A stretch of DNA of 31,514 nucleotides, from IMG/VR virus record IMGVR_UViG_3300032320_002936, positions 1-31,514 of that record; one strand, written 5' to 3'. Origin of the DNA: a virus (taxonomy: Duplodnaviria > Caudoviricetes). Made by a program: the position numbers and the translations under genes. This document shows positions 8,192 to 29,939 of this stretch, one piece after another. Position 1 is the stretch's first letter; every line of letters starts with the position of its first letter. A model generated the notes under the pieces. That model searched no databases and was not told the origin of the DNA. It saw nothing but the letters and a program-made list of their open reading frames with translations.

Positions 8192-9098
8192 CAATTTCTT
8201 TTATTTTATTTTCTATAAATTTATTTAAATTTTTATCAAATTCTTCTCTTTGTTCAGATACATCTCGTCTAACAAGAAAATTTTTATAATAATTAGAAAA
8301 ACCATGTACTTCATCTGTTCTTAAAGGACCAATTGAATATTCGAATATTATTTGACCATCTAAACGATATTGTTGAAAATCTAATCCTTTATGTTTGGCA
8401 TAATTAGAAGCAATTAAACCATAAGTATCCCAACCCCCATATCCTTTCCATTCATCAGGTACTCTTGCTAAATCTTCATAAAAATCTTTGCTATATAAAT
8501 CAAACCAACCAGCCCATTTTAATTGATTAATAGGTGTAATACCAACTTCATCCTGAGTAGTATGTAAGTAGTTATCAACATCAAATATATCTGTTGTTTT
8601 TTCCCATCCATAATGGGGTCCAACTGCAAATTTAGGATGTGTTAATACTTCCCATGATTCATCCCACATTCTGCAAATTTGAGGAGTTAATACAAAATAT
8701 TTATTTGGTATAGATTGAGCAGCTTGTACTAAATATGATAACAAATATTCACTAAAGTACATATCAGGACATATACTAATATAGTAATCAATTCCAGATG
8801 AAATGCATTCTCGTTGTAACTCAAGATGACCATATAATTCATCTCCAGTATAGATTTTAGCATTGTGATTATAATCTTTTAATAAAATAGATAAAGTATT
8901 ATATTTTTCAATAAAAAATTCTTTAGGTAATTTACTTTCATCCCAATTTATTAAAAATGAAGATAAATTTAAAACACTATCTATAGATACATTTACATCT
9001 TTGGGTAGATAATATTTTGATTTTTTAAGCTGAGTAAAGGTTAATAGAGCATAATCTATTTCCCAAGGCATTATATGGTATGTTATTTTTATATTCAT
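8181..9098 (-). CDS. Divergent GT-A glycosyltransferase-like protein
   Basis: DYYISICPDMYF (DxD-like position) and WKGYGGWDT (GWGxED-like, GT2/GT7); located within the glycan locus. Confidence 0.45.
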   Translation of the reverse strand: MNIKITYHIMPWEIDYALLTFTQLKKSKYYLPKDVNVSIDSVLNLSSFLINWDESKLPKEFFIEKYNTLSILLKDYNHNAKIYTGDELYGHLELQRECISSGIDYYISICPDMYFSEYLLSYLVQAAQSIPNKYFVLTPQICRMWDESWEVLTHPKFAVGPHYGWEKTTDIFDVDNYLHTTQDEVGITPINQLKWAGWFDLYSKDFYEDLARVPDEWKGYGGWDTYGLIASNYAKHKGLDFQQYRLDGQIIFEYSIGPLRTDEVHGFSNYYKNFLVRRDVSEQREEFDKNLNKFIENKIKEIDGY

Positions 9099-9862
9099 TT
9101 CAATTCTTCAAAAACATTTTTAATTCCTTGCTCTAATCCTAGAACCTTAATAGGTAATTCAGTACTTTTACCAATATATGAGTTAGTTGGTTTTAAATTA
9201 TTATAATTAACAGGTACTGTCCAATATGATAAATTATTAATAATAGATGCTATCCCACTTAAAGCCATTGTATCATTATAGCAACAATCTATTTCTTTAT
9301 CTAAATTATCATTTAATATATAAAACTCTATTAACGAAACCAAATCTTTTATATAGAAAAAATCCATTAATTTATCCTGATGAATTATTATAGGTTCTCC
9401 AGCAATATATCTTTTAATACTAGCTTTAATAAATCTTGTATCTAATTCATTTTCATCAAATACACCATAAATTCTTATAGTATGCCAATTTTCAATTTCA
9501 TTAACTAATTCATTACACCATTTTTTACTTGCACCATAAGGAGTTTCAGGAGCATACATTTCAGCTCCTGATCCTAGATTAATTAATTTTGTATATTTGT
9601 CTTGGTGAGAGTGTAGATTAGTCATCATGATAATGTTATCTAACAATACTGTTTGATCATCTTCATTTAATCTACTACCTCCTTTAATAGCTGTATGAAT
9701 TACAACATCAAATTGTTTATTCTTAAAGAATTTATCAACTGATTTTCTATTTGTTAAGTCTAATTCATCTCTTCCTGGGGATAATATATGATACCTGTCC
9801 CATAAAGCATTAGTGATGCTTTTAGCTATATAACCTTTACCTCCAGTAATTAATATTTTCAT
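9095..9862 (-). CDS. NAD-dependent epimerase/reductase (extended SDR) for NDP-sugars
   Basis: ILITGGKGYIA, DVVIHTA, LGSGAEMY, YGASK (YxxxK). Confidence 0.85.
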   Translation of the reverse strand: MKILITGGKGYIAKSITNALWDRYHILSPGRDELDLTNRKSVDKFFKNKQFDVVIHTAIKGGSRLNEDDQTVLLDNIIMMTNLHSHQDKYTKLINLGSGAEMYAPETPYGASKKWCNELVNEIENWHTIRIYGVFDENELDTRFIKASIKRYIAGEPIIIHQDKLMDFFYIKDLVSLIEFYILNDNLDKEIDCCYNDTMALSGIASIINNLSYWTVPVNYNNLKPTNSYIGKSTELPIKVLGLEQGIKNVFEELK

Positions 9863-9864: not shown

Positions 9865-10791
9865 TTAGTTTTTACGAGTAGTAATTGGGGTTACACTATG
9901 ATTAGGTGAAGCATGATTTTCGACTCTATCTTTTTCATATTTCCATTTATCATCTCCTAATAATTTTTCTAATTCATCTTCTTTAATTTCATAAAAATTT
10001 TCTTGAGCAGGAAATATTCCATTTTTTACTTCATCAACATACTGTTCTAAAGCATCTTGTATAATTTTTCCTGCTTCACAATATCTTTTAACAAATTTAG
10101 ATTTAAACTCCCAAAATAAACCAGTTAAATCATGAAATATAACAAGTTGGCCATCAACACCATTACCACCACCAATACCGTAAACAGGAATTGATAATTG
10201 TTTAGCTATCATTTCAGCTGGTTCTTTAGGCATTGCCTCTAAAAGTAAAGCTGAACATCCTGCTTCTTGTAAAGCTAATGCTTGTTGTAATATTACATCA
10301 GCTTGATCTGCAGTTTTACCTTGAACTTTATATCCTCCTAATTTAGCTCTAGTATGTGGTGTTAGTCCTAAATGACTCATAACCATAATACCTGCTTTTG
10401 CTATTGCTCTTACTCTATCAACCATAGCTCCTTCTACTTTAACCATATCCATACCCGCTCTAATAAATCTTCCAGCGTTTTCAATAGCTAATTCATCTGA
10501 TTGTTGGTAAGACATGTAAGGCATATCTCCAATTAAGAAGGCATTTTGAGCCCCTCTACTAACAGCTTCACAACTTCTAATCATATCTTCCATAGTAACC
10601 GGTATAGTGGTTTTGTATCCTAATTGAGTCATACCTAATGAATCTCCTACTAAAATACAATCTACTCCTGCTCTATCAGCTAATATAGCTTGTGGGTAGT
10701 CATAAGCTGTTACTAATACTGTTTTTTCTCCTTTTAGTTTATTACCTGTTAAAGTAAGAATTGTTTTTTTGGTTTTGCTATCTGCAGCCAT
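9865..10791 (-). CDS. panB: Ketopantoate hydroxymethyltransferase (PanB) homologue
   Basis: TAYD, ILVGDSLGM, GDMPYMSY, VKVEG, HLGLTP, GIGGG, DGQLVIFHD, KFVKRY. Confidence 0.9.
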   Translation of the reverse strand: MAADSKTKKTILTLTGNKLKGEKTVLVTAYDYPQAILADRAGVDCILVGDSLGMTQLGYKTTIPVTMEDMIRSCEAVSRGAQNAFLIGDMPYMSYQQSDELAIENAGRFIRAGMDMVKVEGAMVDRVRAIAKAGIMVMSHLGLTPHTRAKLGGYKVQGKTADQADVILQQALALQEAGCSALLLEAMPKEPAEMIAKQLSIPVYGIGGGNGVDGQLVIFHDLTGLFWEFKSKFVKRYCEAGKIIQDALEQYVDEVKNGIFPAQENFYEIKEDELEKLLGDDKWKYEKDRVENHASPNHSVTPITTRKN

Positions 10792-10810: not shown

Positions 10811-12595
10811 TTATTTATTCAAAGTTACCCATCCTTGGGTATTATCACGTCTTGGGATCATATCTATGACCATATTATTTTTTATAGTTTTATCATCTAA
10901 ATATGGAGACATATCTTCTAAAGGGTTACCAAACTCTAATTTAGGAGTTAGTTTTTGTTCTTTATCTATAATAACATTTACTAATATACTACCTTTTTCT
11001 TGAAGAGCCAAATTTATTACATCTTGATAATTAGTTTTATTAGCTTCTATAGCTTTAATTCCATAAGCAGTAGCTATTTTTACAAAATCAGGAGCAGTAT
11101 AATCTTTAGTTTCAGTAGCTATATATCTTGAATCAAAATATGAGTCTTGAAATTGTTTAATTATACCATAACAATTATTATTCATGATAAAAATCTTAAC
11201 AGGTAAATTATAATGTTTAACTGTTTGTAATTCTTGAATATTCATTTGAAATCCTCCATCCCCATCTATACAAATAACTGGATGGGAATTATTAATTGAT
11301 GCTCCTATAGCAGCTGGTAATCCATATCCCATAGATGAATTTCCGAAGTTTGAAAATACCCTTTGATTATTTTTAGGTTTTAAAGACTGCATTGACCACA
11401 CTAAATGGCCGCCTTCATCAGGTATTATAGTGGAATTTGGGGGTAATTGAGTATTAAGATATTCTAAAAATTCATAAGATGTAAGTACATCTGATTTTAA
11501 GGATCTATTGTCTAGTTTTAGGTTTTTATATTTAGTATAAACTTCTAGCCATTCATTATTAATAACATATGGGATTAAATTATTTGACCATTCTGTTATA
11601 AATTGTTTGGCATCACATACTACAGGTAAATCTATTTTTAATCCCCGACCCTTATAAACTTCATTTTTATCAATATCAACCATTACTTTAAATGATTCTC
11701 TTGAAAATGTTTTTAAATCACCTCCAGTTTGTCTTGTATCTAATCTTGAGCCTATAGAAATTAATAAGTCACAATTTTGAACAGCAAAATTACCTCCTCT
11801 ACTTCCATATACTCCTATATCACCTATAAATAAAGGATGATCATGTGATATAATATCAAATCCACCCCAAGATACTACAAAAGGTATATTTAATTTATTT
11901 ATTAACTCATTTATTTCTTCTACAGCATGAGATAATCTAACTCCGTGCCCTATAAGTAATAAAGGTCTCTTAGAGATTTTTAACTGTTTATTTAACCTTT
12001 TAAGTTGATGATTTATATCAGTAATAAGGGGTTTTAGAGAAATTTTAAATACCTCTTCACTAATAATACTATTTTGTATATTAGTAGGTATATCTAATAA
12101 ACTAGGTCCTGGTCTACCCGTAAAACATTTATTTAAGGCTTCATGTAAGTCTTGTTTAAAAGTAGTTGGGTCATTTATTTTTTTAATAAATTTAGTAAAA
12201 GGTTTAAATGATTCAACAACAGGCATTTCTTGGAAACCTAGCTGCCTTGGTTTAGTATTAATAAAATCTAAAGATTCATAAGTACTAACTTGTCCTGTTA
12301 TAAACAAACAAGGTATAGATTCATACCAACACCCACATATACCGTTTAATAAATTTTGAGCCCCAGGACCACTTGTACTTAATACTACTCCTAGTTTACC
12401 TGTTGTTCTATAGTAAGCTTCAGCAGCCATTGCTGCTGACTGTTCATGTTGAAAACAAAAATATTTAATTCCGGGTTTAGTTCCAATATAATCTATAGTA
12501 GGTACTATAGCTCCTCCAGTTACTAAAAAATAGGTATCAATTTTATTATAAACTAAGGTATCAATTAAATATTCTAAAACTTTTTTATCAGACAT
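10811..12595 (-). CDS. ThDP-dependent AHAS-like enzyme, YerE-type sugar-branching carboligase
   Basis: TGGA, QHEQSAAMAAEAY, TSGPG, RQLGFQE, GDGGFQMNIQELQT...NN, C-terminal PLEDMSPYL; neighbours are NDP-sugar enzymes, with no ilvN/ilvC. Confidence 0.8.
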   Translation of the reverse strand: MSDKKVLEYLIDTLVYNKIDTYFLVTGGAIVPTIDYIGTKPGIKYFCFQHEQSAAMAAEAYYRTTGKLGVVLSTSGPGAQNLLNGICGCWYESIPCLFITGQVSTYESLDFINTKPRQLGFQEMPVVESFKPFTKFIKKINDPTTFKQDLHEALNKCFTGRPGPSLLDIPTNIQNSIISEEVFKISLKPLITDINHQLKRLNKQLKISKRPLLLIGHGVRLSHAVEEINELINKLNIPFVVSWGGFDIISHDHPLFIGDIGVYGSRGGNFAVQNCDLLISIGSRLDTRQTGGDLKTFSRESFKVMVDIDKNEVYKGRGLKIDLPVVCDAKQFITEWSNNLIPYVINNEWLEVYTKYKNLKLDNRSLKSDVLTSYEFLEYLNTQLPPNSTIIPDEGGHLVWSMQSLKPKNNQRVFSNFGNSSMGYGLPAAIGASINNSHPVICIDGDGGFQMNIQELQTVKHYNLPVKIFIMNNNCYGIIKQFQDSYFDSRYIATETKDYTAPDFVKIATAYGIKAIEANKTNYQDVINLALQEKGSILVNVIIDKEQKLTPKLEFGNPLEDMSPYLDDKTIKNNMVIDMIPRRDNTQGWVTLNK

Positions 12596-12601: not shown

Positions 12602-13138
12602 TTATTTTTCTTTACTAAAATCACCAAATTCAACTAAGATAGTATTAATACCATCAGTTCTATTTAATGCTTTTTCGTAAGCAGGAACTATATCTTCAGG
12701 TTCGAATAACTCTATAACTTCTGTGTTTTTAGTCATTTGTCTAAATGCTTCTGAAAAGTTTCCTTTATGTTGGCATTGAGGATCAACTGGTCTTTCACTT
12801 CCTACTGCTACTCTAATAATAACTTTAGGGTTACATTTACCATTTGACATTTCAATAAACTTGTCCAAATGGTTAACTATTTGATCTACTCCCATTAGTA
12901 AAAAATTCCATCTTGGATAAGTTGATACGGGAATCATTCCTTCAATAGCCATTCCATTTGCCAATCCTGTTTGTAAATACTCAGCTACCGGTAGTTCTAA
13001 TTTTTTGTGTGAAGGTAAATGAGCCATAGTATCGAATAGTCCTGTTCCTTCATACTCAACAGCTTGTCCTATAAATAAAGTTTTAGGATGTTCAGCTAAC
13101 AAGCTCATTGCTTTCTTTAATTCTTCAAAGTATTTCAT
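12602..13138 (-). CDS. Short 2-oxoacid dehydrogenase E1-beta/transketolase Pyr-domain protein
   Basis: ELPVAE..QTGLANGMA..G..P, FL....DQIVN, QH; 178 aa, lacks the C-terminal domain. Confidence 0.8.
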   Translation of the reverse strand: MKYFEELKKAMSLLAEHPKTLFIGQAVEYEGTGLFDTMAHLPSHKKLELPVAEYLQTGLANGMAIEGMIPVSTYPRWNFLLMGVDQIVNHLDKFIEMSNGKCNPKVIIRVAVGSERPVDPQCQHKGNFSEAFRQMTKNTEVIELFEPEDIVPAYEKALNRTDGINTILVEFGDFSKEK

Positions 13139-13147
13139 ATCTCTGTA

Positions 13148-13774
13148 TTAAAATTGAACTCTCATTCCGGCACCAGCATGAGGATATTTTGTATTTTCGT
13201 ATTGGTAATATACTAAATTCTTTTGAAATAGCAAACCTCCTTGATAATCAGAGTTTAAATAGTAAGGCCGATCTCTTTTCCAAATATCTGGGGTTGGTGT
13301 GCAGACTGATTTTCTATTATCTTCTACAATAAATGTGATAGGTAAATCATGATTTAAACTATATTTGTAGGCTTCATGAAATGCTCCGGTTTCAGCAGAC
13401 ATATCACCTACCCAACACCAAACTTTATTTGGTTTTTCTTGATATTTAATTGCTAAAGCAATACCTGCTGCTATAGAAGGAATACCACCAACAATTGAAC
13501 TACAAATAAATTTATATTCAGGAAGATTAACCACCATTGATTTACCCTCCATAATATTCTGTTTCATCACTTCAGTTGGAATTCCTTTTAATAATCCTTG
13601 ATAATGATTTCTCCAAGTACAACATACCCAATCATTTTCTATATCAATGTGATTAAATAATGAAATCATTAATTCTTCATTCCCATGATATAAATGAATA
13701 GGAGCTTTTATTTCACCTTTATTAAATGAATCTCCAATTTCAGTTTCAAACTGAATTAATTGTTCTTTTACCAT
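13148..13774 (-). CDS. Short 2-oxoacid dehydrogenase E1-alpha (ThDP PP-domain) protein
   Basis: PIHLYHGNE, TWRNH, SIVGG, GDMSAETGAFHEA...FIVEDN ThDP motif; 208 aa. Confidence 0.8.
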   Translation of the reverse strand: MVKEQLIQFETEIGDSFNKGEIKAPIHLYHGNEELMISLFNHIDIENDWVCCTWRNHYQGLLKGIPTEVMKQNIMEGKSMVVNLPEYKFICSSIVGGIPSIAAGIALAIKYQEKPNKVWCWVGDMSAETGAFHEAYKYSLNHDLPITFIVEDNRKSVCTPTPDIWKRDRPYYLNSDYQGGLLFQKNLVYYQYENTKYPHAGAGMRVQF

Positions 13775-14724
13775 ATAAATTTTTCTCTGTAATATTCTAT
13801 AATATGTTTTAATTCAATATCAAAATTCATTTCAGGCTTCCATCCTAATGCTCTTAACTTATCATCATTTAAGGCATATCTAACATCTTGTCCTTTTCTA
13901 TCATATGAAAAGTCTATAAAATCTTCTAACATATAAACCTTATTATTATTGTGTAATGTAAGAACTTTTTTTATAGTTTCCAAATTACTTTGTTCAAATC
14001 CACCACAGATATTAAAAATTTCATTCTGAATTCCAGATTCAATAATTGTAATAATAGCATTAGCTGTATCTTGGGCATGAAGCCAAGTTCTAATTGGAGT
14101 ACCTCCATTATGTAGCGGAATCTTTTTTCCTAACTTTAAATGCTTTAATGCTTTAGGAATTAACTTTTCAGTATACTGTCCTGCTCCGTAGTTATTTGTT
14201 GGCCGAACTATTACATAAGGAAGGTTGTAAGTTCTACCCCATGCTGTTACAAGCATATCTGCTGCAGCTTTTGTAGCTGAGTATGGATTGGAAGGTTTAA
14301 GTAAATCTGTTTCTATATGTTCTCCTTCTTCAATGTCTCCATATACTTCATCTGTACTAAAGTGAAGTAATATAGGTTTTGATGAATGTTCTCCTCTGTG
14401 ATTTTTAATTAATTCTAATAAGTTATGTACACCATTTATATTTGAAGATACAAATTCATCTGAATTAGCTATGGAGTTTCCAACGTGAGTTTCAGCAGCT
14501 GTATTGATTATATAATCACAATCATATAAAAAATTTAAATCATTTATATCGCAATTAACAAATGAAAAATTTTTATATTTTTTAAATTCGGTTAAAAGTC
14601 CTTTATTAGAAGCATAAGTTCCCTTATCAACTCCTTTTACATACCATCCTTTATTTAGGCATGCTCTTGTTACATAGGATCCTATAAACCCTAAACAACC
14701 TGTTACGTAAACTACTTTTGTCAT
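13768..14724 (-). CDS. rfbB: NDP-glucose 4,6-dehydratase, RfbB/RmlB type
   Basis: TGCLGFIG, AAETHV, STDEVYG (catalytic T-D-E), YSATK, NNYG..Q..EKLIP, RKGQDVRY. Confidence 0.85.
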   Translation of the reverse strand: MTKVVYVTGCLGFIGSYVTRACLNKGWYVKGVDKGTYASNKGLLTEFKKYKNFSFVNCDINDLNFLYDCDYIINTAAETHVGNSIANSDEFVSSNINGVHNLLELIKNHRGEHSSKPILLHFSTDEVYGDIEEGEHIETDLLKPSNPYSATKAAADMLVTAWGRTYNLPYVIVRPTNNYGAGQYTEKLIPKALKHLKLGKKIPLHNGGTPIRTWLHAQDTANAIITIIESGIQNEIFNICGGFEQSNLETIKKVLTLHNNNKVYMLEDFIDFSYDRKGQDVRYALNDDKLRALGWKPEMNFDIELKHIIEYYREKFIW

Positions 14725-15557
14725 ATAAATAAATTATTACAATTATTTGCAAATTTTATGGTTTGTTCAACCATTTTATTTTTTTGGTTTTCTATTTCTT
14801 TAAATAATAAAGGTAAAGTTTCTATAGCACGAGGTATATCATCTTCACCATAAGCTATTCCATACTTATGAAGAGGAGATCCTTCTAACCATTCTTCTTT
14901 TGTTTTAATTCCATCAGGTACTACTATACTTAAACACCCACACATTGCTGCCTGAGTGTGTAAAAATGTATAATTATCGTAACAATAAAATCTTTCAGTT
15001 TTATTAAAAAGTTCTGAAAGTGAAGTTAAATCTCCTGCAGAATTAAATGGGATAAAGATAGAATCGTTAGGATGAATTAATTGTTTGGGGTTAGCTTTTC
15101 TAATTGAATAACAACTACCATTTCTTTTGTTACCTACATTTTTAAAAATATTATCATGAAATTCTGATATCTGAAGTATGTTTTCTTTATATCCTAAAGA
15201 TTCAACATAATAATAATCCATATACCAATAAATCAAATCTGATTTTAAATAAGTTACAGTATCTTCGGTTCTTGGTGGTCCTAATATCCATCTTACTACG
15301 TTTTTGGCATTTAATGGATTATATTTAATCCCTTCAGGGTATATTACTATAGCGTTATCTAAATCATCTAATATTTCTTGGGTAATTAAAGGAGTATCAT
15401 AATCATCACATACATAAAAATCTTCTCTAATATGAATAGGCATTAAATAACTTTCATATCCATTTTTATTAAGTAAATCACATAATTTATGCATTACTTT
15501 AATTCCTCCTACTCCTGGGGAGTAATCATATGTGTATATTACAAATGGTTTTTTCAT
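14721..15557 (-). CDS. WavQ-like putative glycosyltransferase
   Basis: GGIKVMHKLCDLL, IVIYPE....NPLNAKNVVRWIL, AAMCGC. Confidence 0.5.
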   Translation of the reverse strand: MKKPFVIYTYDYSPGVGGIKVMHKLCDLLNKNGYESYLMPIHIREDFYVCDDYDTPLITQEILDDLDNAIVIYPEGIKYNPLNAKNVVRWILGPPRTEDTVTYLKSDLIYWYMDYYYVESLGYKENILQISEFHDNIFKNVGNKRNGSCYSIRKANPKQLIHPNDSIFIPFNSAGDLTSLSELFNKTERFYCYDNYTFLHTQAAMCGCLSIVVPDGIKTKEEWLEGSPLHKYGIAYGEDDIPRAIETLPLLFKEIENQKNKMVEQTIKFANNCNNLFI

Positions 15558-16456
15558 TAAAAGTTACAATTGCATTGTTCATTTAAAAATTGTTTGGTTT
15601 CATCATTAAACCAAACTGTTTTCATTTCATGTAGAGTTTCATTGTATTCTTCTTTAGTTTTTACTCCTAAAGCTTCAGCATAATGAAATACTTTAATTTG
15701 TTTATTATCGGGTGTAAATAATTTATTATCTTTAACATGATAAGTTGAAGTAGGATAAATATTCCCTATTACACTGCTATTAGGATCTTTATAATTTCCA
15801 TTATATAAATTACCACGATACATTTGATTACCCCCACAAGCCATTCCTTTAGATCTTACATTATATAATGATTTAGTTTTATTATATGGAAAATCTACAA
15901 TACTTACTTTTATATTTAATTGATCTTGATTTTGGTATAGATAATTCATTCCACCTTGTTCAGCATGATTAGTCCAAAATTCTATAGATTTTTCTATTAA
16001 CATATCCGCTGATTTAAAATTATTAAAACAGGCAACATCAGCATTTATAAAATCAACATCACCATCAATAAATTTTGGAGCCCAATACTCAGTTTTCAAA
16101 AAACTATAAGGTGGACCTGATGAACATATCATATCATCAATATCATTGTTTATAAATTCATCAAGATATGAGCATGTAAATGTATCTAGCCCTAACATTA
16201 TTACTTTATCATAATTTTTTAGTCTAAATAATTCTCTTATAATATAAACTCGAATTAAACCTACACTATCATAGTATTCAGTTATATTTAAATCTTTTAA
16301 ATAAGAATTAAAATTATCATTAGTAATATGATGAATATCTACATTAGGATGCCATTTTTTAAAACTATTTATAGCATTAGGAGCAAAAAAGTCATCTTTT
16401 TGATAATTATTACCTTCATGATTAGTAATATGTAAAAAAACACAAGCTATTTTCAT
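15557..16456 (-). CDS. GT8-like glycosyltransferase (degenerate DxD)
   Basis: NSFKKWHP, YDKVIMLGLD, FINADV, EQGGMNYL, FHYA follow the GT8 motif order. Confidence 0.5.
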   Translation of the reverse strand: MKIACVFLHITNHEGNNYQKDDFFAPNAINSFKKWHPNVDIHHITNDNFNSYLKDLNITEYYDSVGLIRVYIIRELFRLKNYDKVIMLGLDTFTCSYLDEFINNDIDDMICSSGPPYSFLKTEYWAPKFIDGDVDFINADVACFNNFKSADMLIEKSIEFWTNHAEQGGMNYLYQNQDQLNIKVSIVDFPYNKTKSLYNVRSKGMACGGNQMYRGNLYNGNYKDPNSSVIGNIYPTSTYHVKDNKLFTPDNKQIKVFHYAEALGVKTKEEYNETLHEMKTVWFNDETKQFLNEQCNCNF

Positions 16457-17824: not shown

Positions 17825-18877
17825 TTATATTTCTCCTTTATCAATTTGTTTTAAAACTTCTATAATTGAATCTATATCAAATAATTCCCAAGCTAAATTA
17901 TTAGGGTCGGATTGCCCTTCTTCTAATTGTGCCACACAAACACCACCACCATCTAAACTGATTAGGTTAGTTTTTGATTTATTTGAAAATTGTTGACATT
18001 TATATCCTAACCAACCTTCCATTTTAGGATGAGTAATAATAATATTAGTATTAGCTTTAGTAGAAAATAATAAATTTATGTTAGAAGCACTACTTTGTTG
18101 AATAATATTTTTATAGGATTTAAATATTTGTATTTTACCTATAATATCATGATCCATTAATTCAATAATATCATAGTCTAGCTCATTTTTAATTTTATCT
18201 ATAAGTTCTAACTCATTTATCAAATTTCTTGAATGATACCATCCTCTTTTTATAGTATCTTGCCTTGAAATATAACATCCATTTTTAATTGGAGTTTTTG
18301 CTGGGATTTTAGAAACTGTTTCAACTATTCTATCAGTGATTAGATCATCTCCATGAGACATTGGAAAACCATATAGTAAATTAGGTAAAATTAAGTTTGA
18401 TATTTTGTATTTAACATGTTTTTTAAATACTATAATTTCAATATTTTTATCTTGATAATATAAATCTAACCATTGCTTTACAAAACTACTATCACCTTTT
18501 TCTTGATAATAGTCTTCAAGTATTCCTAGTTTTAATTTAGGATTTGTTTTTAGTAATTCATCAAAATACAAACATCTTCCAAAGAAATTAAAAAAGTGGT
18601 GAATATAATTTAACCCTGATTCATCATAAAGAAAAAATATTTCGTCTTCTAATAATTCATCAAATGATTCATCTATAGCAACAATATTAGTATGTAAAGA
18701 TTGATTATTATTACTAGTATTAATCAAATAACCATCATGAGATATATCAACCCATCCTATACCATTTTTTATATCATTCTCCTTATGTCTTAGAATAGGA
18801 TTTTTAATTAATGTACAAAAATCATTTTGGGGATTAATAGTTTTTGGTAAATTTATATTAATTCTTTGGGAGTTCAT
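17825..18877 (-). CDS. Glycosyltransferase family 61 (DUF563)-like protein
   Basis: NYIHHF, YISRQD....RNLINELEL, IQIFKSYKNII...SA..NLLF. Confidence 0.65.
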   Translation of the reverse strand: MNSQRININLPKTINPQNDFCTLIKNPILRHKENDIKNGIGWVDISHDGYLINTSNNNQSLHTNIVAIDESFDELLEDEIFFLYDESGLNYIHHFFNFFGRCLYFDELLKTNPKLKLGILEDYYQEKGDSSFVKQWLDLYYQDKNIEIIVFKKHVKYKISNLILPNLLYGFPMSHGDDLITDRIVETVSKIPAKTPIKNGCYISRQDTIKRGWYHSRNLINELELIDKIKNELDYDIIELMDHDIIGKIQIFKSYKNIIQQSSASNINLLFSTKANTNIIITHPKMEGWLGYKCQQFSNKSKTNLISLDGGGVCVAQLEEGQSDPNNLAWELFDIDSIIEVLKQIDKGEI

Positions 18878-20732
18878 CTAATAAGGTATTTATTATTTTA
18901 AAGTATTTTGCAAATTTATCTTGGTCTTCAGTATGTAAAGGCATAAGTGTGAAGAATAAACTTGCTGTTATCATTTTTATTATACGAAGACCTTTTTCCT
19001 CAAACAAATCTTCAAATACATTTTTAAATTCATTTATATAAACATTATCTAATTCAATATCATTTAAAATAAAATCATATCCTAATATTGATTGATAAAC
19101 CTTGGCTAAATCATAATAAGCATCTCCTATAATAGTTAACTCATTATCTATTTTACCTTTCATATCAATAAACTTTAAACCTTGTTCAGTTTGTAAAACA
19201 TTGGTAAATACTGGGTCACCATGTATCACCGCAAACACTGCTTTATCATAGTGAAATAATAAATTATCAAGTTTTTTAAATATAGATTCAGCGTGTATGT
19301 ACTTATTGTATAAATCTAGATTATTATTGTATCTATCTCTAAGTTTTTGGTTATAGTCAGCATAAACTTTAGGATATGTTTTTACTTTACCAATTGTAAT
19401 ATGAAGCATATTTAATTGCTGTAGTAACTCTTTTAATTGTTCAACTTTTAATAATTTATTAGTATACAAATATGAAAAATTTACACCTTCAATATTTTCC
19501 ATAGTAATTTGATTACCGGTAATATTATATACTTTGGGAAATAAATGTTCACGGTGTTTAGGTATATTTTGATACCAATAAATTTCACCTGGGTTTGAAG
19601 TAGTTTTTACAACTTTATCTTTATTATAGTCTACTTTATTAAATGTTCTAGGTACAATTTCAGTATCATAAACTCCTATAGCTTGATTCATTGATATAGA
19701 AGGGTTAACAGCTAAATCATCTATGTAAAAATTAGCGTATGGCTTACCAAAATAAATTTCATCATAAGGTATATCAAATTTATCAAGTGTATCGAGAGTT
19801 ACCCTGGATATATCGGCTATTACACGTCCAACATTACCACCATGTGTTTTCATTCTACGGGCAGTATAAATTATAATAGTATGGCCTAAACTATGAAGTA
19901 ATTTAAGGAAATTAATGTTACGTTGAATTGGTTCTACACTATAGTAATCACCTGGTATAGTAGGATATGAAACTAAAGTATTATCAAAATCAAAACATAT
20001 TCTTAATGATTCTGAGTTGTGTTTGTTTTTATTACAATAAATTTGAAGTTGTAGAGGAGTACCCACACAACTAAATTTAGTTATTTGTTGTCCTTTTATT
20101 ACTAAATTATCTTTTAACATTTCATTATACACACATGAGGTATAAAGTTCTGTTGTTGTAGAAGGTAATTTTTCAATATACTGTTTTAGAGTACGCCCTG
20201 TATGAAAACCATAGGCACCAGTATTAGCCCAATCTGATATTTTTGTTTTCTCAGCTATTTTTGTAACCCAATTATTAGAATCTAATTTTATATAAGAAAA
20301 TATAGGGTTGGTTTGCTTATCTTCAAAATAAAAAATCATATTTTTATTATCAGACTTTCTATAATAATCTAATATATCTTCTTCATAAAAGGTATCACAA
20401 TCCAAAACTAAAAATTCTTTTTCTAATTCTTTAACAGGCATTTCATTTAACCCATAAAGTATAGTTTCAGATGCTCCTTTAGTAACATGATTTAAAGATA
20501 TAAATTTAATATTTTTTTTAGGGAAATAGAACTTAACTAAATTTTCAAAGTTAAATTCTTTTAACTGGTTATTATAAACAATGTAGATAGTATCCTCATC
20601 ATTTAATTTCAGGTTATCTATTACTCTATAAATCATAGTTTTACCTAAAACACTTATAAGTGGTTTAGGCATAAGATATCCTTCATCTTTAAAACGTTGA
20701 CCTATACCTCCAATTGGAATTATTATGTTCAT
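18858..20732 (-). CDS. Three-domain fusion: nucleotidyltransferase + HAD-IIIC (EcbF/BcbF-like) phosphatase + APH/choline-kinase-like phosphotransferase
   Basis: MNIIIPIGGIGQRF...PKPLI, LDCD; DFDNTL, YTARRM, FGKP...YIDD; IHGDPVFTNV...FIDMKG, YDLAK; ATG 20732 overlaps the upstream TGA (ATGA). Confidence 0.8.
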   Translation of the reverse strand: MNIIIPIGGIGQRFKDEGYLMPKPLISVLGKTMIYRVIDNLKLNDEDTIYIVYNNQLKEFNFENLVKFYFPKKNIKFISLNHVTKGASETILYGLNEMPVKELEKEFLVLDCDTFYEEDILDYYRKSDNKNMIFYFEDKQTNPIFSYIKLDSNNWVTKIAEKTKISDWANTGAYGFHTGRTLKQYIEKLPSTTTELYTSCVYNEMLKDNLVIKGQQITKFSCVGTPLQLQIYCNKNKHNSESLRICFDFDNTLVSYPTIPGDYYSVEPIQRNINFLKLLHSLGHTIIIYTARRMKTHGGNVGRVIADISRVTLDTLDKFDIPYDEIYFGKPYANFYIDDLAVNPSISMNQAIGVYDTEIVPRTFNKVDYNKDKVVKTTSNPGEIYWYQNIPKHREHLFPKVYNITGNQITMENIEGVNFSYLYTNKLLKVEQLKELLQQLNMLHITIGKVKTYPKVYADYNQKLRDRYNNNLDLYNKYIHAESIFKKLDNLLFHYDKAVFAVIHGDPVFTNVLQTEQGLKFIDMKGKIDNELTIIGDAYYDLAKVYQSILGYDFILNDIELDNVYINEFKNVFEDLFEEKGLRIIKMITASLFFTLMPLHTEDQDKFAKYFKIINTLLDELPKN

Positions 20733-21346
20733 AATAGATCGTATAAATTGTTTTGTTTTTCTTGCCTCTCGATGTGTTTTGGATGGTATAAACAATAATC
20801 ATCCTCTAATGGTAAAGTAGCCCAAGTGTTATGACCCATTAGTACTTCATGCACTTTATTACCCCAATTGATTTTTGGTGAATTTTGAAGTATACGAGGT
20901 TGTAAATCAGGAAAGTTAACCCATCCTTTTTCATTTACATTCCATCTCCATCTTTGGATGTGTTCTTGAGTTAATCCTTCTACAGTATTAATTCTAGGAA
21001 GTAAAAATACATCAATAGTTGAATTGTCTTGAAGTATTAAATGCAAATTCTGTAAAAATTCAATTGTTACATATTCATCAGCATCTATTTGAAAAATCCA
21101 TTCTCCAATACAATGTTTTTTTAGATTATTTTTAAAAGCTGAAAAGTTACCTTTTAAAGGAAATTCTATAACATTTACTCTACCATAAAATTGGTCTAGT
21201 ACTTTATATACTTCAGGTGTAGTATTACCTTGATCACATTGAACTACTATTTCATCCTCATCTCTTTTATTAGTGACGAGGATGCTTAGTAATCTCATTA
21301 ATTCTTCATGTTCATTACAAACAGGAATCGCATAACTTATTTTCAT
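20729..21346 (-). CDS. Glycosyltransferase family 2
   Basis: ISYAIPVCNE, DEIVV, FSAFKN, WIFQIDADE, VHE. Confidence 0.85.
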   Translation of the reverse strand: MKISYAIPVCNEHEELMRLLSILVTNKRDEDEIVVQCDQGNTTPEVYKVLDQFYGRVNVIEFPLKGNFSAFKNNLKKHCIGEWIFQIDADEYVTIEFLQNLHLILQDNSTIDVFLLPRINTVEGLTQEHIQRWRWNVNEKGWVNFPDLQPRILQNSPKINWGNKVHEVLMGHNTWATLPLEDDYCLYHPKHIERQEKQNNLYDLL

Positions 21347-21351
21347 ATTTT

Positions 21352-21804
21352 TTAGTTGTAAAAACCTATATAATCTAACGCCTCAATAAAATCCTCTTGT
21401 GGATAATTCTTTAAAGATTTAATATCAGTTTTATGTGTATAAAATTCTTCAGTACCTGGAATTTTGAATTTACCTTTCTCTTCTTCGCTTACTTCAACAG
21501 CTTTTATACCTGCCCATTGCCAATTGAATTTAGAAGTACCATTAGCAAATACCGTTCCTTTATCCTGAATATTAATGGTAATTGGATACCATACTCGTTT
21601 TTCTGAATCTGTGTTTTTGAGGTCTTTGTAAAGTTCAGGTAAAGTTTCTTCATAAGTATCAAATTCGAATTCACCTTCTTTCATTAGATCATTAGTTTGA
21701 AAACCACATCCAAAACAAAAATAATTGTTTTTTACTTCGTTTACAGGAGTGATATAACAAGCATCACTCCCGCAACGTGGACATATAGATAATTTATCTT
21801 TCAT
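21352..21804 (-). CDS. Zinc-ribbon protein
   Basis: CPRCGSDAC...YFCFGCGF. Confidence 0.65.
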   Translation of the reverse strand: MKDKLSICPRCGSDACYITPVNEVKNNYFCFGCGFQTNDLMKEGEFEFDTYEETLPELYKDLKNTDSEKRVWYPITINIQDKGTVFANGTSKFNWQWAGIKAVEVSEEEKGKFKIPGTEEFYTHKTDIKSLKNYPQEDFIEALDYIGFYN

Positions 21805-21805
21805 T

Positions 21806-23113
21806 TTATTCTACTTTTTTAAGTTTAGGTAACTCAATTTTTTTCAATTGAGGTAATTTTAATTGTACTTGTTTTGGAAACTCAGGTACATTAGTAGTTA
21901 ATATGGTATCTAATTTTTCTTGCATTTTTTCAAATGAAAAATTAGTTTTACAATAATGTGCTAAACGTTTACCATTATCTTGATATTTTTTATAATTTTC
22001 AAAATAATCTCTTAATACACCACCTGCAAATCCATAATCTACTGTAAACCATTGTGAACCATCAATTAACATATCCTTAACTTGAGCAGATGGGTGAATA
22101 TTAGTTAAAGTACCAGGTATTAATGAAGTAAATTCAGGATTTAAGAAATCCAATTGTCCACTCCAGTTTGGAGCAATTACTGGTTTTTTAGTTTGAGTAA
22201 ATTCAAGTAATGGTCTACCAAATCCTTCACCTTTAGTAAAACTAACCATTGCTTTTATTTTAGAATGGTTATAAAGTTGGTTCATCTCATCATCTGATAC
22301 TTCACCATGAAATAAGTAAATGTTAGGTAAGTTTTTAGAATTTACAGACTTTCTAATAGCATCTAACTTTTTTAAAATACTATCTCTATCTACAATACTG
22401 GTTGGACCTGACATTGTTTTTAAGATAAGTGCAGGTTTTTTAGATTTGTTTTTAAACGATTCTAAAAATATTTTAACTAAACCACCTACATCTTTTCTGT
22501 CTTGAAATATATCTCCTTGTAACCAATGACCTGTAAATAAGAAAGCAAATTCTTCTTTTACATTATCTAATGCTTGTTTTATCTCAGAAGCAGGAGTTAA
22601 GGGAGAAGCAAAATATTTAGTTATATCTACTCCTTCAAATAATACTTCAATGGGAGCAGTTAATTCTATAATACCAACTGTTTGTTTAGTTTTTTCATCT
22701 TGTTTCTGGAATTTGGAATCTTGGAATACTTTTTTAGCATGTTCAGATGAAACTAAATTTAAGTTCATTCTATTCATACCTTCAAGCCATTGTGGAGCAC
22801 AAATTGTAGTTTCAATACCTGCTGTTATTCCAATATTATATTTTCCAATAGGTTGAAATTCATTAGGTACTGTAATTTGAGCCCAAACATCAGGCTGTTC
22901 AGTTAAATTTCCTGTTAAGATATATGATTGTAAAAATCCCCATTCATCTTGGTGATCTTCAATAAATCCCCAAGGTGTATTTCCCCAACGTTGAGGCATT
23001 ATTTTAATATTGTATTTATCTAAATTAATTAACGCTTTAACTAAATCACGTGAGCGTGAACCGTAACCTGAGTATGTGTCTATAGGACAACTTATTACAA
23101 ATGTATTTTTCAT
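21806..23113 (-). CDS. GT-B (GT4-like) glycosyltransferase
   Basis: TYSGYG, RKD, TKGEGFGRPLLEF, PVIAPNWSGQLDF. Confidence 0.8.
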   Translation of the reverse strand: MKNTFVISCPIDTYSGYGSRSRDLVKALINLDKYNIKIMPQRWGNTPWGFIEDHQDEWGFLQSYILTGNLTEQPDVWAQITVPNEFQPIGKYNIGITAGIETTICAPQWLEGMNRMNLNLVSSEHAKKVFQDSKFQKQDEKTKQTVGIIELTAPIEVLFEGVDITKYFASPLTPASEIKQALDNVKEEFAFLFTGHWLQGDIFQDRKDVGGLVKIFLESFKNKSKKPALILKTMSGPTSIVDRDSILKKLDAIRKSVNSKNLPNIYLFHGEVSDDEMNQLYNHSKIKAMVSFTKGEGFGRPLLEFTQTKKPVIAPNWSGQLDFLNPEFTSLIPGTLTNIHPSAQVKDMLIDGSQWFTVDYGFAGGVLRDYFENYKKYQDNGKRLAHYCKTNFSFEKMQEKLDTILTTNVPEFPKQVQLKLPQLKKIELPKLKKVE

Positions 23114-23123
23114 TATAATTTTA

Positions 23124-24548
23124 TTAATACGTTAATTTATGAACTAATTCTAGAGGCTCCAAATCTTCTACCTTAAAGAATTCAAATGATTTTTTAGGTA
23201 CAAATTTTTCTAATGTTAAATCAATGTCTTTGATTACATTATTACACATCATACGAGCAGACATTCCTGATTCATCTGAAGTTACCCATTCTCTAGCTGC
23301 CTTACCATTCTCAATTCTTTCTTCAGGAGTCAATTCATAAACTTGTTGAATAGCATTTGCTAAATCTCTAAAATCTAATCTATCATCCCAAATATAAGGA
23401 GTTGTTGGTGAACCTACTAATGACATATTATTTGGAAATACTGGTATGGCCCATTTACCATGTTTTTTATAAGTACCAAAATGGTTTGAAGGGAAATCAG
23501 TTGTAAAGTCAATCCATTTTCCATTTTCATCTTCAAAACGCATTTGGTCTTGCATACCTCCTGTTACATTAGCTATAATCATTTTACCAGCCATCATAGC
23601 CTCAGTTAATGCTAATCCCCATCCTTCGTTTGAAGAAGGTAGTACGGTTACATCTGCAATGTTGTATATGTTATTTAATTCAGCTGTATCAATTCTCTGA
23701 TCTGAGAAGAATATATTTGAATTAGGGCCAAATAGTAAAGTTTTTACAGCATCTAAATCTGTACCATTTCCATCTATAACTTGTGTATGTAATACTAAAG
23801 CTACTTTATCTGCTTTTTCTTTAGGTAAGGAATCTAAAAACATTTTGTGAGCAGCCATTAAATCACTAACACATTTTCTTCTAATGTTTCTTGAATTAAA
23901 GAACACAATAAAATCAAATTCTTTATCACCAAACAATTTTTGTTTTGTAGGAATTAATTTTGATTTATCTTCTACAGGAAAGAATTGTTTTTCATTAATT
24001 CCATGAGGTACATAAGAGATAAGTTTACCATCTGCTCTTTTACCTAAAACCATTTCATTAATGTTTTTGGTTTGTTTTGAGATAGCTAATAATGTATCAC
24101 ATGATTCATAAAATGCTCTATTGTAAAGTGGAGCAGGTAAATCATCCCAAATGTTTAAGTAAATCATTGGAATTTGTTTTCTTACTTCATTTTCAATAGC
24201 AAATAACCAATCATAATATCTTGGATCAGTAAAAAACATTAAACCATCTGGTTTTTCATTTTTTAACATATATCTGATTAAATCAGAATTACCATACCCA
24301 TTATTTGGATAGATAATTACATCAGTATCAGTAAGTTGTGTTTCAGCGTTAGTAGCTTGAGATAAATCTAATCTTTGTCCGTGTTCAGGATGATTAATAG
24401 CAGCTCCTATTATTACCCAATTATAGTGATGGGCAGTTCCTAAAACTATTTCTCGAGCCATTGTAGCAATACCCGAGTGCATTCTAATGTCGTCGCAAAT
24501 GAATAATATTTTTTTTCTTTGCTCTTTAGGTAGATAACCTTCTTTCAT
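23124..24548 (-). CDS. GT4 glycosyltransferase
   Basis: HSGIAT, VPHGI, RNIRRK, YNIADV, SNEGWGLALTEAM (EX7E), TGGMQDQ. Confidence 0.85.
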   Translation of the reverse strand: MKEGYLPKEQRKKILFICDDIRMHSGIATMAREIVLGTAHHYNWVIIGAAINHPEHGQRLDLSQATNAETQLTDTDVIIYPNNGYGNSDLIRYMLKNEKPDGLMFFTDPRYYDWLFAIENEVRKQIPMIYLNIWDDLPAPLYNRAFYESCDTLLAISKQTKNINEMVLGKRADGKLISYVPHGINEKQFFPVEDKSKLIPTKQKLFGDKEFDFIVFFNSRNIRRKCVSDLMAAHKMFLDSLPKEKADKVALVLHTQVIDGNGTDLDAVKTLLFGPNSNIFFSDQRIDTAELNNIYNIADVTVLPSSNEGWGLALTEAMMAGKMIIANVTGGMQDQMRFEDENGKWIDFTTDFPSNHFGTYKKHGKWAIPVFPNNMSLVGSPTTPYIWDDRLDFRDLANAIQQVYELTPEERIENGKAAREWVTSDESGMSARMMCNNVIKDIDLTLEKFVPKKSFEFFKVEDLEPLELVHKLTY

Positions 24549-27645: not shown

Positions 27646-29286
27646 TTACATCATTCCTTGCATAGGATTGATTTCTTCTTTTTTGTCTTCTTTTTTCTCG
27701 TAAATTACAGATTCGGTTGTTAGGATTGTACCTGCAACTGAAGCTGCGTTTTCTAAAGCAATACGAGTTACTTTTTTAGGATCAATAATACCTGCAGATT
27801 TAAAATCCATTGTTGATAAGTCTTTATAGTTAAGACCATTCCAATTGCTTCCTTTTTCTGAATCAGTTAATTTAGAACCTAGATATTGAACCTCAGTTAA
27901 ATCATGACCTGCATTGGTTAATATTCTTTGGAATGGAGCAGCTGCTGCTCTGTAAACAATTTTCTTACCATTTACAAAATCATTTGAACCTTCAAAAGTA
28001 ATACCTTTACGAGCATATAATAAAGCAGTTCCACCACCAATTACAATACCTTCTTCAAGAGCGGCTTTTGTAGCAAATAAAGCATCTTCTACTCTATCTT
28101 TTTTCTCTTTAATTTCAAGTTCACTATTACCACCTACGTTAATAATAGCTACTCCACCAATCATTTTACCTAAACGCTCTTGTAATTTTTCTTTTTCAAA
28201 TGGTGAACCTGCGTCATCAATTTGTTTTTTAATTTCTTGAGCTCTAGTTTCAATTGCTTCTTCTGATCCTTTACCATCTACAATTGTTGTTTTTTCTTTT
28301 CCAATTGTAGCAGTACGAGAAGTACCTAAACATTGTTTTAAAGTATTAACATCAATTTTTTCTAATTTATGTCCTTTATCTTTAGAAAGAACTTGACCAC
28401 CTGTGATAATAGCTAAATCTTCTAAAGCCATTGTTCTACGATCTCCAAATTCAGGAGCTTTAACTGCTACTACATTTACAATACCTCTCATCTTATTAAC
28501 GATAGTCACGGCTAATGCTTCTCCATCAATATCCTCTGCTACTACTAATAATGCTCGTTTTTCAGTATTAGCTAATGTTAGAGCTGGGATTAATTCTTGA
28601 TGGTTGGTAATTCTACCATTATAAATTAAGATGTAAGGATTATCTAATACAGCGGTCATTGTATTATTATCAGTTACAAAATAAGGTGATTTGTAACCTC
28701 TATCAAATTGCATACCTTCTACAATTTCAAGTGAAGTTTCACCGGATTTTGATTCTTCAATAGCAACAACTCCATCTCTACCTACTTTTTCTAAAGCAGT
28801 AGCAATTAAATTACCAATTTCTACATCATTGTTACCTGAAATAGTAGCAACTTCTTTAATTTGTTGATTGTCCGAAATATCTTCTGTTAGGTTATTAAGA
28901 GTAGTTTTAAGTTCTTCTACAGCGGCATCAATTCCTTTTTTAATTTCAATTGGATTTTGACCTGCACTTACATGTTTCAATCCTTCTTCTAGAATTGCAT
29001 AAGATAATAAAGTTGAAGTAGTAGTACCATCACCTACTTCATTTGCGGATTTAATTGATACTTTTTTTACTAATTCAGCCCCAATTGATTCGATTGGATC
29101 TTCTAGTTCTTTAAATTCTTTAGCTACAGATACACCGTCTTTAGTTACTGTTAATTGACCATAATCTCCTTTGATTAATACTGTTCTACCTGCTGGTCCT
29201 AAGGTAGAAGATACACTATCATTTAGTTTTTTTACTCCTGATAGTAATTTAGTTTTTAATTCTGTTCCGAATGCTGTTTCTGTCAT
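27646..29286 (-). CDS. groEL: Chaperonin GroEL
   Basis: [64 protein letters not shown]. Confidence 0.97.
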
Positions 29287-29288
29287 AA

Positions 29289-29582
29289 TTAATCTGTTAT
29301 AATTGATGGGATTTGTTCTTGTGAAATTATAAGATAATCTACGTTGTCTAATGTAAGTTTTTGTGCACCCATTGGTGGGATTACAACTTTTTGACCTACT
29401 TTTAAATCAGTTGGGATAAACTCACCTCTGTGGTAATTGTATACATCGGATACTGCTATAATTTCAGCTACAAGTAATTTTTCATGTCCTACATCAGGAA
29501 TAATGATATTACCTACCATCATTTCATTTTCTTCTACTTGTTTTAGAATAATACTACCTACTCTTGGTTCTAATTTACTCAT
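29289..29582 (-). CDS. groES: Co-chaperonin GroES
   Basis: 97 aa, LEP..., GNIIIPD mobile loop, LKVGQKV; directly upstream of groEL. Confidence 0.85.
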   Translation of the reverse strand: MSKLEPRVGSIILKQVEENEMMVGNIIIPDVGHEKLLVAEIIAVSDVYNYHRGEFIPTDLKVGQKVVIPPMGAQKLTLDNVDYLIISQEQIPSIITD

Positions 29583-29877: not shown

Positions 29878-29900
29878 AACTTTTCTTATTTGTTTCGTGT

Positions 29901-29929: not shown

Positions 29930-29939
29930 ACAAAACTTA

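What the first reader, a model, noticed from the sequence alone, without database searches (positions are those of the whole stretch)
9865..10791. PanB homologue inside a sugar operon, probably repurposed to make the branch donor
Seen: an intact PanB between the YerE-like enzyme and the SDR (19 and 2 nt gaps), with no panC, panD or panE in the window. Known: PanB transfers a hydroxymethyl group from methylene-THF to C3 of 2-keto acids and accepts several of them. Inference: it makes a hydroxymethylated keto acid (e.g. 4-hydroxy-2-oxobutanoate from pyruvate, or ketopantoate itself) that the adjacent ThDP enzyme decarboxylates and grafts on the sugar, giving an unusual hydroxyacyl branch. Automatic pipelines would label it a pantothenate auxiliary metabolic gene.
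Basis: partly seen in the sequence, partly recalled or inferred. Interest (0 to 1): 0.8.

Follow-up and report, generated by a model that had tools for sequence, protein, structure and literature searches.

The report
Phage PanB feeding sugar-branching enzyme
This uncultured T4-like phage carries an intact copy of the vitamin-B5 enzyme PanB beside a thiamine-dependent enzyme in a deoxy-sugar gene cluster, a pairing kept across many related viruses, and it likely makes the side-chain building block of an undescribed carbon-branched sugar rather than vitamin B5.

Summary
Observation confirmed: an intact PanB (308 aa, minus strand) lies between a YerE-like ThDP enzyme (19 nt gap) and an SDR (2 nt gap), in a cluster with RfbH/E1 and a 4,6-dehydratase. 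All 80 closest viral PanB loci have a YerE-like gene directly adjacent, in both orders, though in 66 of 80 that partner is only 27-38% identical to the window's. PanC is absent from 55 of 55 viral records (7 near-complete). The gene belongs to a PanB paralogue lineage apart from panC-linked PanB. Its keto-acid pocket reads Leu/Leu/Ile (96 of 97 YerE-linked copies, 0 of 18 panC-linked), which hints at a substrate smaller than ketoisovalerate. Best reading (0.7): PanB fills the 'aldolase slot' of the erwiniose/caryophyllose scheme, most likely making 4-hydroxy-2-oxobutanoate from pyruvate for a three-carbon branch on a 3,6-dideoxyhexose. No activity or sugar structure is shown. I found no paper on this use; a virome paper reads such genes as pantothenate boosters. 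The scan already noted the same pairing on other phage DNA (at least 8 earlier notes). New variant of a known kind.

The parts
9865..10791 (-). PanB/KPHMT paralogue, 308 aa; predicted donor-making hydroxymethyltransferase. Catalytic residues kept (D50, S51, D89, K118, E120, H140, E185); pocket L183/L216/I218; clade-specific H146; about 40 aa C-terminal tail, low confidence beyond residue 286
10811..12595 (-). YerE-like ThDP carboligase, 594 aa, GDG...NN motif intact; predicted to decarboxylate the donor and add it to C4 of an NDP-4-keto-deoxysugar
   Evidence: best PDB hits 8rph (298 bits) and 5ahk (293) against at most 228 for acetolactate synthases; below the cut-off of all 25 NCBIfam models shown; motif
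9095..9862 (-). Extended SDR, 255 aa; candidate YerF-like branch reductase (role inferred from position)
   Evidence: PF01370; an SDR-like gene is adjacent to PanB in 59 of 80 loci; no PDB hit at 1e-5
13768..14724 (-). NDP-glucose 4,6-dehydratase (RmlB-like), 318 aa
   Evidence: TIGR01181 302 bits, below its cut-off of 365; PF16363
16458..17768 (-). RfbH/DdhC (E1) 3-dehydrase, 436 aa, SFYPAHH motif; predicted to give the 3,6-dideoxy-4-keto acceptor
   Evidence: NF011936 456 vs cut-off 423; best PDB hit 3bcx, E 1.5e-100; motif
12602..13774 (-). Short split E1-alpha/beta (transketolase-like) ThDP pair, 208 + 178 aa; accessory, not part of the conserved core
   Evidence: PF00676 and PF02779; in 6 of 80 loci; missing from the nearest relative L003
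6364..9098 (-). Downstream genes: 305 aa unknown, Methyltransf_24, GT2 glycosyltransferase; candidate transfer and tailoring genes
14721..16456 (-). Two unknown genes (278 and 299 aa) inside the cluster; no Pfam, NCBIfam or PHROG hit
17825..24548 (-). Upstream glycan genes: GT61, nucleotidyltransferase-phosphatase fusion, GT2, a 150 aa unknown, two GT4

Best explanation
This intact PanB paralogue, which sits beside a YerE-like thiamine enzyme in a phage deoxy-sugar cluster, likely makes the hydroxymethylated 2-oxo acid (most likely 4-hydroxy-2-oxobutanoate from pyruvate and methylene-THF) that the neighbour would decarboxylate and graft onto C4 of a 4-keto-3,6-dideoxy sugar. Steps: (1) the RmlB-like dehydratase and RfbH/E1 would give NDP-4-keto-3,6-dideoxyhexose (families shown; reaction inferred; nucleotide unknown). 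(2) PanB would add CH2OH to C3 of a small 2-oxo acid (family and catalytic residues shown; substrate inferred; my split within this reading: pyruvate about 0.5, 2-oxobutanoate 0.25, ketoisovalerate 0.15, other 0.1). (3) The YerE-like enzyme would transfer the 3-hydroxypropanoyl unit. (4) The SDR would reduce it to a 1,3-dihydroxypropyl branch. (5) A cluster glycosyltransferase would install the sugar on an unknown target, such as virion protein or host surface.
For: Adjacency in 80 of 80 best viral relatives, 61 upstream and 19 downstream. A broader profile scan: 72 of 80 adjacent, 4 within 3.4 kb, and the other 4 are panB-panC-panD operons (overlaps the first set). Metagenome scan: of 65 same-clade copies, 59 adjacent, 3 near, 3 with too little flank. 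Partners are exchanged while adjacency stays: in 66 of 80 loci the ThDP gene is 27-38% identical to the window's while PanB is 69-87%, and both PanB clades are spread over the ThDP tree. RfbH/DegT-like gene in 70 of 80 loci. PanC 0 of 55 viral records including 7 at least 90% complete; PanD 0 of 50. A Chloroflexi genome has panB beside panC plus a second PanB beside a YerE-like gene. Pocket residues at E. coli positions 179/212/214 read LLI in 96 of 97 YerE-linked and 0 of 18 panC-linked copies; I212A and V214G alter the substrate scope of E. coli PanB (PMC7610986). ErwE, MMAR_2332 and MyGE convert 4-hydroxy-2-oxobutanoate, and their clusters carry an adjacent aldolase for the donor (PMC9306805). 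P. putida PanB partly rescued a homoserine auxotroph as a pyruvate-formaldehyde aldolase (10.1101/2025.02.17.638773).
Against: No enzyme assay and no sugar structure. The LLI pocket is shared with 64 of 75 cellular sister paralogues that have no YerE neighbour, so it marks the lineage, not the sugar role; in 14 of 40 genomes tested such a copy is the only PanB found and may be housekeeping. No E3 reductase family for RfbH among the 44 window proteins. Viral YerE-like genes also occur without PanB (13 of 30 loci), and no aldolase family appeared among the 17 neighbours scanned from five of them, so strict slot-swapping with aldolases was not shown. One metagenome contig (L313) has a sister PanB in a glycan cluster with no YerE gene within 6 kb. 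Five of 50 records gave partial PanE-family hits, 2 just over the cut-off; I read them as other Rossmann enzymes but did not check.
Confidence: 0.7

Rival explanations
1. Pantothenate/CoA auxiliary metabolic gene: the ThDP enzyme is an acetolactate synthase and, with PanB, boosts the two committed steps towards pantoate, the host supplying the rest.
For: PanB passes the panB equivalog cut-off and keeps all catalytic residues. Databases name the neighbour acetolactate synthase. A virome paper reads viral pantoate transferase this way (PMC8940887). Single-gene AMGs are common (established knowledge).
Against: The ThDP enzyme is closer to YerE-like structures than to AHAS and is under every cut-off shown. 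IlvD 0 of 80 loci, PanC 0 of 55, PanD 0 of 50 records. The pair sits among deoxy-sugar genes. The pocket differs from panC-linked PanB.
Confidence: 0.08
2. Reverse order: the YerE-like enzyme first adds an acetyl branch from pyruvate, and PanB then hydroxymethylates the sugar-bound acyloin.
For: It gives the same constant adjacency. The question of order had to be tested for ErwE too (PMC9306805).
Against: Residues recalled to bind the 2-oxo-acid carboxylate and metal are invariant, the pocket looks tighter rather than wider, and ErwE rejects pyruvate, which settled the order for erwiniose.
Confidence: 0.08
3. PanB acts as a folate-independent class II aldolase with a larger aldehyde, giving a longer branch as in erwiniose or caryophyllose.
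For: E. coli PanB and variants act as aldolases with several aldehydes (PMC7610986). Clade-specific changes near the presumed folate site (Q142H in 71 of 73 clade A rows; F87Q in 21 of 21 clade B rows; the site assignment is recalled). Some loci add split transketolases and an aldo-keto reductase.
Against: No aldehyde-forming gene is conserved across the loci; Tyr25, Thr57 and the GGY loop are conserved.
Confidence: 0.08
4. The PanB product is used elsewhere in the glycan, for example reduced or oxidatively decarboxylated to an N- or O-acyl substituent, and the YerE-like enzyme uses pyruvate independently.
For: L313 places a sister PanB with a DegT aminotransferase, a GNAT acyltransferase and a split transketolase, with no YerE gene. 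The window has a split E1-like pair.
Against: The E1-like pair is in 6 of 80 loci, whereas the YerE-like gene is adjacent in 80 of 80.
Confidence: 0.06

Closest known systems
Unifying scheme for acyl-branched sugars: erwiniose (ErwI/ErwJ-ErwE-ErwF), caryophyllose (MMAR_2331/2332), gastriose (MygI-MyGE-MygF); Steitz et al. 2022, PMC9306805
   Same: Deoxy-keto-sugar genes, a YerE-like ThDP enzyme, a reductase, and an adjacent C-C-forming enzyme placed to make a gamma-hydroxy 2-oxo acid.
   Different: The adjacent enzyme is a PanB-family folate-dependent hydroxymethyltransferase, not an aldolase; the predicted branch has three carbons; the cluster is viral. PanB is not mentioned in that paper's supplement, and I saw no mention in parts 1-2 of 3 of its text.
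Yersiniose A pathway (E1/RfbH, YerE, YerF) of Yersinia pseudotuberculosis
   Same: RfbH/E1 orthologue (best PDB hit 3bcx), YerE-like enzyme and a downstream SDR.
   Different: YerE uses pyruvate directly and needs no donor-making enzyme; no E3 reductase gene was found here; the dehydratase is RmlB-like rather than CDP-type.
Ketopantoate hydroxymethyltransferase PanB (E. coli 1M3U, M. tuberculosis 1OY0)
   Same: Fold, catalytic and metal-binding residues, equivalog score.
   Different: Separate lineage from panC-linked copies; pocket L/L/I instead of V/(V,I)/V; Q142H; a C-terminal extension; no panC or panD in related viral records.

Membership tests
PanB/KPHMT enzyme family | Full-length match above curated cut-offs (PF02548, TIGR00222) | tested here: met
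PanB/KPHMT enzyme family | Barrel fold and catalytic set D45, S46, D84, K112, E114, H136, E181 (roles recalled from KPHMT literature) | tested here: met
PanB/KPHMT enzyme family | Ketoisovalerate + methylene-THF to ketopantoate activity | not testable with these tools
   needs assay
Housekeeping pantothenate pathway (panBCD/E) | Co-occurrence with panC/panD | tested here: not met
   PanC 0 of 55 and PanD 0 of 50 viral records; most records are fragments, 7 are near-complete
Housekeeping pantothenate pathway (panBCD/E) | Groups with panC-linked PanB and shares its pocket residues | tested here: not met
YerE-like ThDP lyases (594 aa neighbour) | Closer to YerE-like structures than to AHAS; intact ThDP motif | tested here: met
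   (8rph read as JanthE from its CDG motif and PMC12247030; 5ahk read as PpYerE from recall)
YerE-like ThDP lyases (594 aa neighbour) | Ketone acceptor carboligation | not testable with these tools
   needs assay
Biosynthetic acetolactate synthase (594 aa neighbour) | Equivalog cut-off; branched-chain amino acid gene context | tested here: not met
   TIGR00118 394 vs 538; IlvD 0 of 80 loci
Acyl-branched sugar clusters (Steitz scheme) | Genes for a 4-keto-3,6-dideoxy acceptor | tested here: met
   RfbH above cut-off, 4,6-dehydratase; E3 reductase not found
Acyl-branched sugar clusters (Steitz scheme) | Adjacent pyruvate aldolase that makes the donor | tested here: not met
   no aldolase family in the window; PanB holds the position
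Acyl-branched sugar clusters (Steitz scheme) | YerF-like branch reductase | tested here: inconclusive
   an SDR follows PanB; orthology to YerF not tested
Acyl-branched sugar clusters (Steitz scheme) | A branched sugar is actually made | not testable with these tools
   uncultured virus; no glycan data

The most novel reading that the evidence does not exclude
A folate-dependent pyruvate hydroxymethyltransferase lineage of PanB has been recruited by T4-like phages and giant viruses to build an undescribed 4-C-(1,3-dihydroxypropyl)-3,6-dideoxyhexose for viral glycans. It is the first link between folate one-carbon metabolism and ThDP sugar branching, and most viral 'pantoate transferase' and adjacent 'acetolactate synthase' AMGs are glycan genes.
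Probability: 0.35. Interest if true: 0.8.

Novelty: new variant of a known kind. Interest (0 to 1): 0.63.

Why it matters
It would add a new donor-making module, and probably a new sugar, to the branched-sugar scheme, with a three-enzyme test that can be run from synthetic genes. It would change how virome surveys read 'vitamin B5' genes: in the broad scan 76 of the 80 best viral PanB loci sit by a YerE-like gene and only 4 in panBCD operons. It also points to a PanB lineage that may be a natural pyruvate hydroxymethyltransferase, an activity sought for synthetic one-carbon assimilation.

Tried and rejected
Two independent recruitments of PanB: the free tree splits YerE-linked copies into two viral clades, but the AU test did not reject one clade (p 0.118), so this is not claimed. 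Mutual exclusion of PanB and aldolases beside viral YerE genes: no aldolase among 17 neighbours scanned from five PanB-free loci, so not shown. Pocket triad as a sugar-specific signature: rejected, it is shared by cellular sister paralogues. An early numbering was off by one after about position 157 because the Salmonella reference is shorter; redone. Cultured phages: 12 PanB hits, all under 60% identity; three annotated ones that I opened sit near panC, a fourth has no annotation, so there is no cultured model. Plasmids: 632 records, all under 60%; of the 25 listed, 23 overlap panC. A Salmonella PanB query found nothing in viral contigs. Promoter scan uninformative (101 sites vs 131 expected). 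The commonest neighbour of the cellular paralogues (426 aa) stayed unidentified. Four regions fetched were not analysed. Literature: ten searches gave no paper linking PanB to a YerE-like enzyme. Krug 2024 (survey of over 200 YerE-like clusters) and Lanza 2024 are not held and could mention it. Thirteen of 15 supplements of PMC8940887 were not searched. No complex prediction was run, since binding is not claimed.

Full report
Setting. The window is a 31.5 kb virus record with nothing more of its genome held. It has T4-like clamp loader, DNA polymerase, GroEL/ES, Hsp20 and endolysin genes, all on the minus strand, at about 29% GC. A close relative (L002, PanB 94% identical, 148 kb, 90% complete) has a T4-type major capsid gene. 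From 24548 down to 6364 runs a tightly packed glycan cluster: two GT4, GT2, a nucleotidyltransferase fusion, GT61, RfbH, two unknowns, an RmlB-like dehydratase, a short split E1-like pair, the 594 aa ThDP enzyme, PanB, an SDR, an unknown, a methyltransferase and a GT2.

Observation. Confirmed in full. PanB is 308 aa, passes PF02548 and TIGR00222, and has gaps of 19 and 2 nt. Mapped on 1M3U, D45, S46, D84, K112, E114, H136 and E181 are kept in the window and in all 73 clade A and 21 clade B rows (their roles are recalled). The model folds as KPHMT. dN/dS over the first 270 codons is 0.03-0.08 against four relatives.

Neighbours. The ThDP enzyme's best solved relatives are 8rph (298 bits) and 5ahk (293), ahead of acetolactate synthases (228 or less). 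8rph shows the CDG motif that PMC12247030 gives for JanthE; that 5ahk is PpYerE is recalled. The enzyme stays under all 25 NCBIfam cut-offs shown. RfbH passes NF011936 and its best structure is Yersinia E1. No E3 reductase was found.

Linkage. Of 119 viral relatives the tool kept 80. All 80 have a homologue of the ThDP gene directly adjacent, 61 upstream and 19 downstream. An RfbH/DegT-like gene is in 70 and an SDR in 74. In 66 of 80 the ThDP partner is only 27-38% identical to the window's while PanB is 69-87%, and on a tree of 40 representative ThDP enzymes both PanB clades are interleaved. Partners have been exchanged and the order flipped while the pair stayed together, which argues for function over passive co-inheritance. 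A profile from 11 diverse PanBs found 152 viral hits, 80 kept: 72 adjacent, 4 within 3.4 kb, and 4 panB-panC-panD operons (this set overlaps the first). It showed a second viral clade at 40-49% identity; one member's record has a giant-virus capsid gene. YerE-linked viral PanBs fall into 66, 52 and 28 types at 95, 90 and 80% identity. In metagenome contigs (80 kept of 570; about a quarter of the collection scanned), 65 clade A copies gave 59 adjacent, 3 near and 3 with too little flank; of 15 others, 5 had a ThDP gene adjacent or near and 10 had none. The reverse link is looser: 13 of 30 viral loci found with the ThDP enzyme have no PanB.

Pantothenate context. PanC: 0 of 50 records chosen as the longest of the 80 and 0 of 5 complete clade B records; 7 of these 55 are at least 90% complete. 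PanD: 0 of 50. PanE family: 5 of 50 partial hits covering 70-85 of 150 positions in 381-409 aa frames, probably other dehydrogenases, unchecked.

Lineage. Among the 80 best cellular-genome hits (scan stopped at 36 of 64 parts), 5 have a YerE-like neighbour and none has panC or panD in the locus. Four of the five nest in the viral clade or match it at 69-78% and may be viral or island contigs. The fifth, a Chloroflexi genome, has panB beside panC on one contig and this second PanB beside YerE-, DegT- and SDR-like genes. I tested 40 of the 75 other genomes: 26 have two or more PanBs over the cut-off, 14 have one, and in 12 a different copy lies within 1.3 kb of panC (read from coordinates). In trees the panC-linked copies fall outside the group that holds the YerE-linked and sister paralogues (support 85 with FastTree, 97 with fewer panC rows). 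One origin of the YerE link is not rejected (p 0.118).

Substrate. At E. coli positions 179/212/214 the residues are LLI in 96 of 97 YerE-linked copies and 64 of 75 cellular sister rows, but V-V/I-V in 16 of 18 panC-linked copies and never LLI. Smaller residues at 202, 212 and 214 alter or widen the substrate scope of E. coli PanB (PMC7610986, passages); the role of 179 is recalled. Larger residues therefore suggest, by inference only, an acceptor smaller than ketoisovalerate. Context of a few sister paralogues points the same way: MetX-MetB-PanB (L106), a methyltransferase operon with a methionine gamma-lyase-like gene and an aminotransferase (L114, L140), methionine gamma-lyase (L132), and LarA-family racemase in 7 loci with IlvD in 6. 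These fit pyruvate/4-hydroxy-2-oxobutanoate or 2-oxobutanoate, but they are a minority of the 75 loci. P. putida PanB partly worked as a pyruvate-formaldehyde aldolase in vivo (10.1101/2025.02.17.638773, passages).

Mechanism. Steitz et al. (PMC9306805; parts 1-2 of 3 read, covering the main text; supplement searched for three terms) show that longer branches come from an aldolase-made gamma-hydroxy 2-oxo acid, a YerE-like enzyme and a reductase. ErwE, MMAR_2332 and MyGE all convert 4-hydroxy-2-oxobutanoate, and ErwE rejects pyruvate. The phage cluster has the same anatomy with PanB in the aldolase position. I put 0.7 on PanB supplying the donor, with pyruvate the likeliest acceptor and a 1,3-dihydroxypropyl branch on a 3,6-dideoxyhexose the likeliest product. 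Shown: families, motifs, linkage, lineage, absence of panC/panD in relatives. Inferred: every reaction, the nucleotide and the glycan target. The rivals (pantothenate AMG, reverse order, aldolase mode, acyl substituent) share the remaining 0.3.

Literature and novelty. Ten searches found no paper joining PanB to a YerE-like enzyme. PMC8940887 (passages) reports pantoate transferase as the most abundant viral vitamin AMG in an oxygen minimum zone and reads it as boosting pantothenate; I could not check those genes' neighbours, as 13 of its 15 supplements were not searched. PMC12247030 was seen as passages. Krug 2024 and Lanza 2024 were not available and may bear on novelty. Earlier notes of this scan describe the same pairing on other phage DNA and a pyruvate/homoserine role for cellular PanB paralogues. 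They are unchecked notes, not support; I had reached both readings before seeing them, and the giant-virus lead came from one of them. Verdict: real, widespread and testable; a new variant of a known kind; interest 0.63.

Noticed in passing
window 12602-13774 (-): A short split E1-alpha/beta ThDP pair sits between the dehydratase and the YerE-like gene; it is absent from the nearest relative L003 and present in 6 of 80 loci. It may add a second, acetyl-type branch.
   Followed up: partly
L313:4809-10427: Sister PanB inside a glycan cluster (GDP-mannose dehydratase-like, PanB, DegT aminotransferase, GNAT, split transketolase) with no YerE gene within 6 kb; the PanB product might become an N-acyl group.
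   Followed up: partly
L196 (record G100); L197-L201: Clade B PanB plus YerE-like and DegT-like genes in records with mixed gene orientation; G100 has a giant-virus major capsid gene, so the pair also occurs in giant viruses.
   Followed up: partly
L176-L188, L193-L195, L212, L226: The YerE-like gene is split into two ORFs (about 335 + 250 aa) in many viral loci, with or without PanB.
   Followed up: no
L016:12765-14294 and 14 other loci; L085:6014-7528: A B12 radical-SAM-like gene lies near the PanB-YerE pair in 15 of 80 viral loci and in the Chloroflexi locus; possible C-methylation of the branch or sugar.
   Followed up: no
L114, L140, L106, L132, L090, L125: Cellular PanB paralogues of the same lineage sit in homoserine/methionine, methyltransferase or LarA-IlvD-TRAP operons; the genome holding L114 has 8 PanB copies.
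   Followed up: partly
L127:10868-12148: An unannotated 426 aa gene neighbours the PanB paralogue in 15 cellular loci, mostly Chloroflexota; no Pfam, NCBIfam or convincing Atlas hit.
   Followed up: partly
L045, L082, L083, L209: PanB-YerE followed by a full split transketolase, and in some an aldo-keto reductase or a second E1-like pair: up to three ThDP systems in one cluster.
   Followed up: no
L217:3988-6000: A nucleotide-sugar dehydratase gene next to PanB carries an intein with a LAGLIDADG domain.
   Followed up: no
window 27646-30366 (-): The phage encodes full GroEL (passes TIGR02348), GroES and Hsp20 next to the clamp loader genes.
   Followed up: no
window 18858-20795 (-): Three-part fusion: nucleotidyltransferase, EcbF/BcbF-like phosphatase and an unnamed C-terminal PHROG domain.
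   Followed up: no
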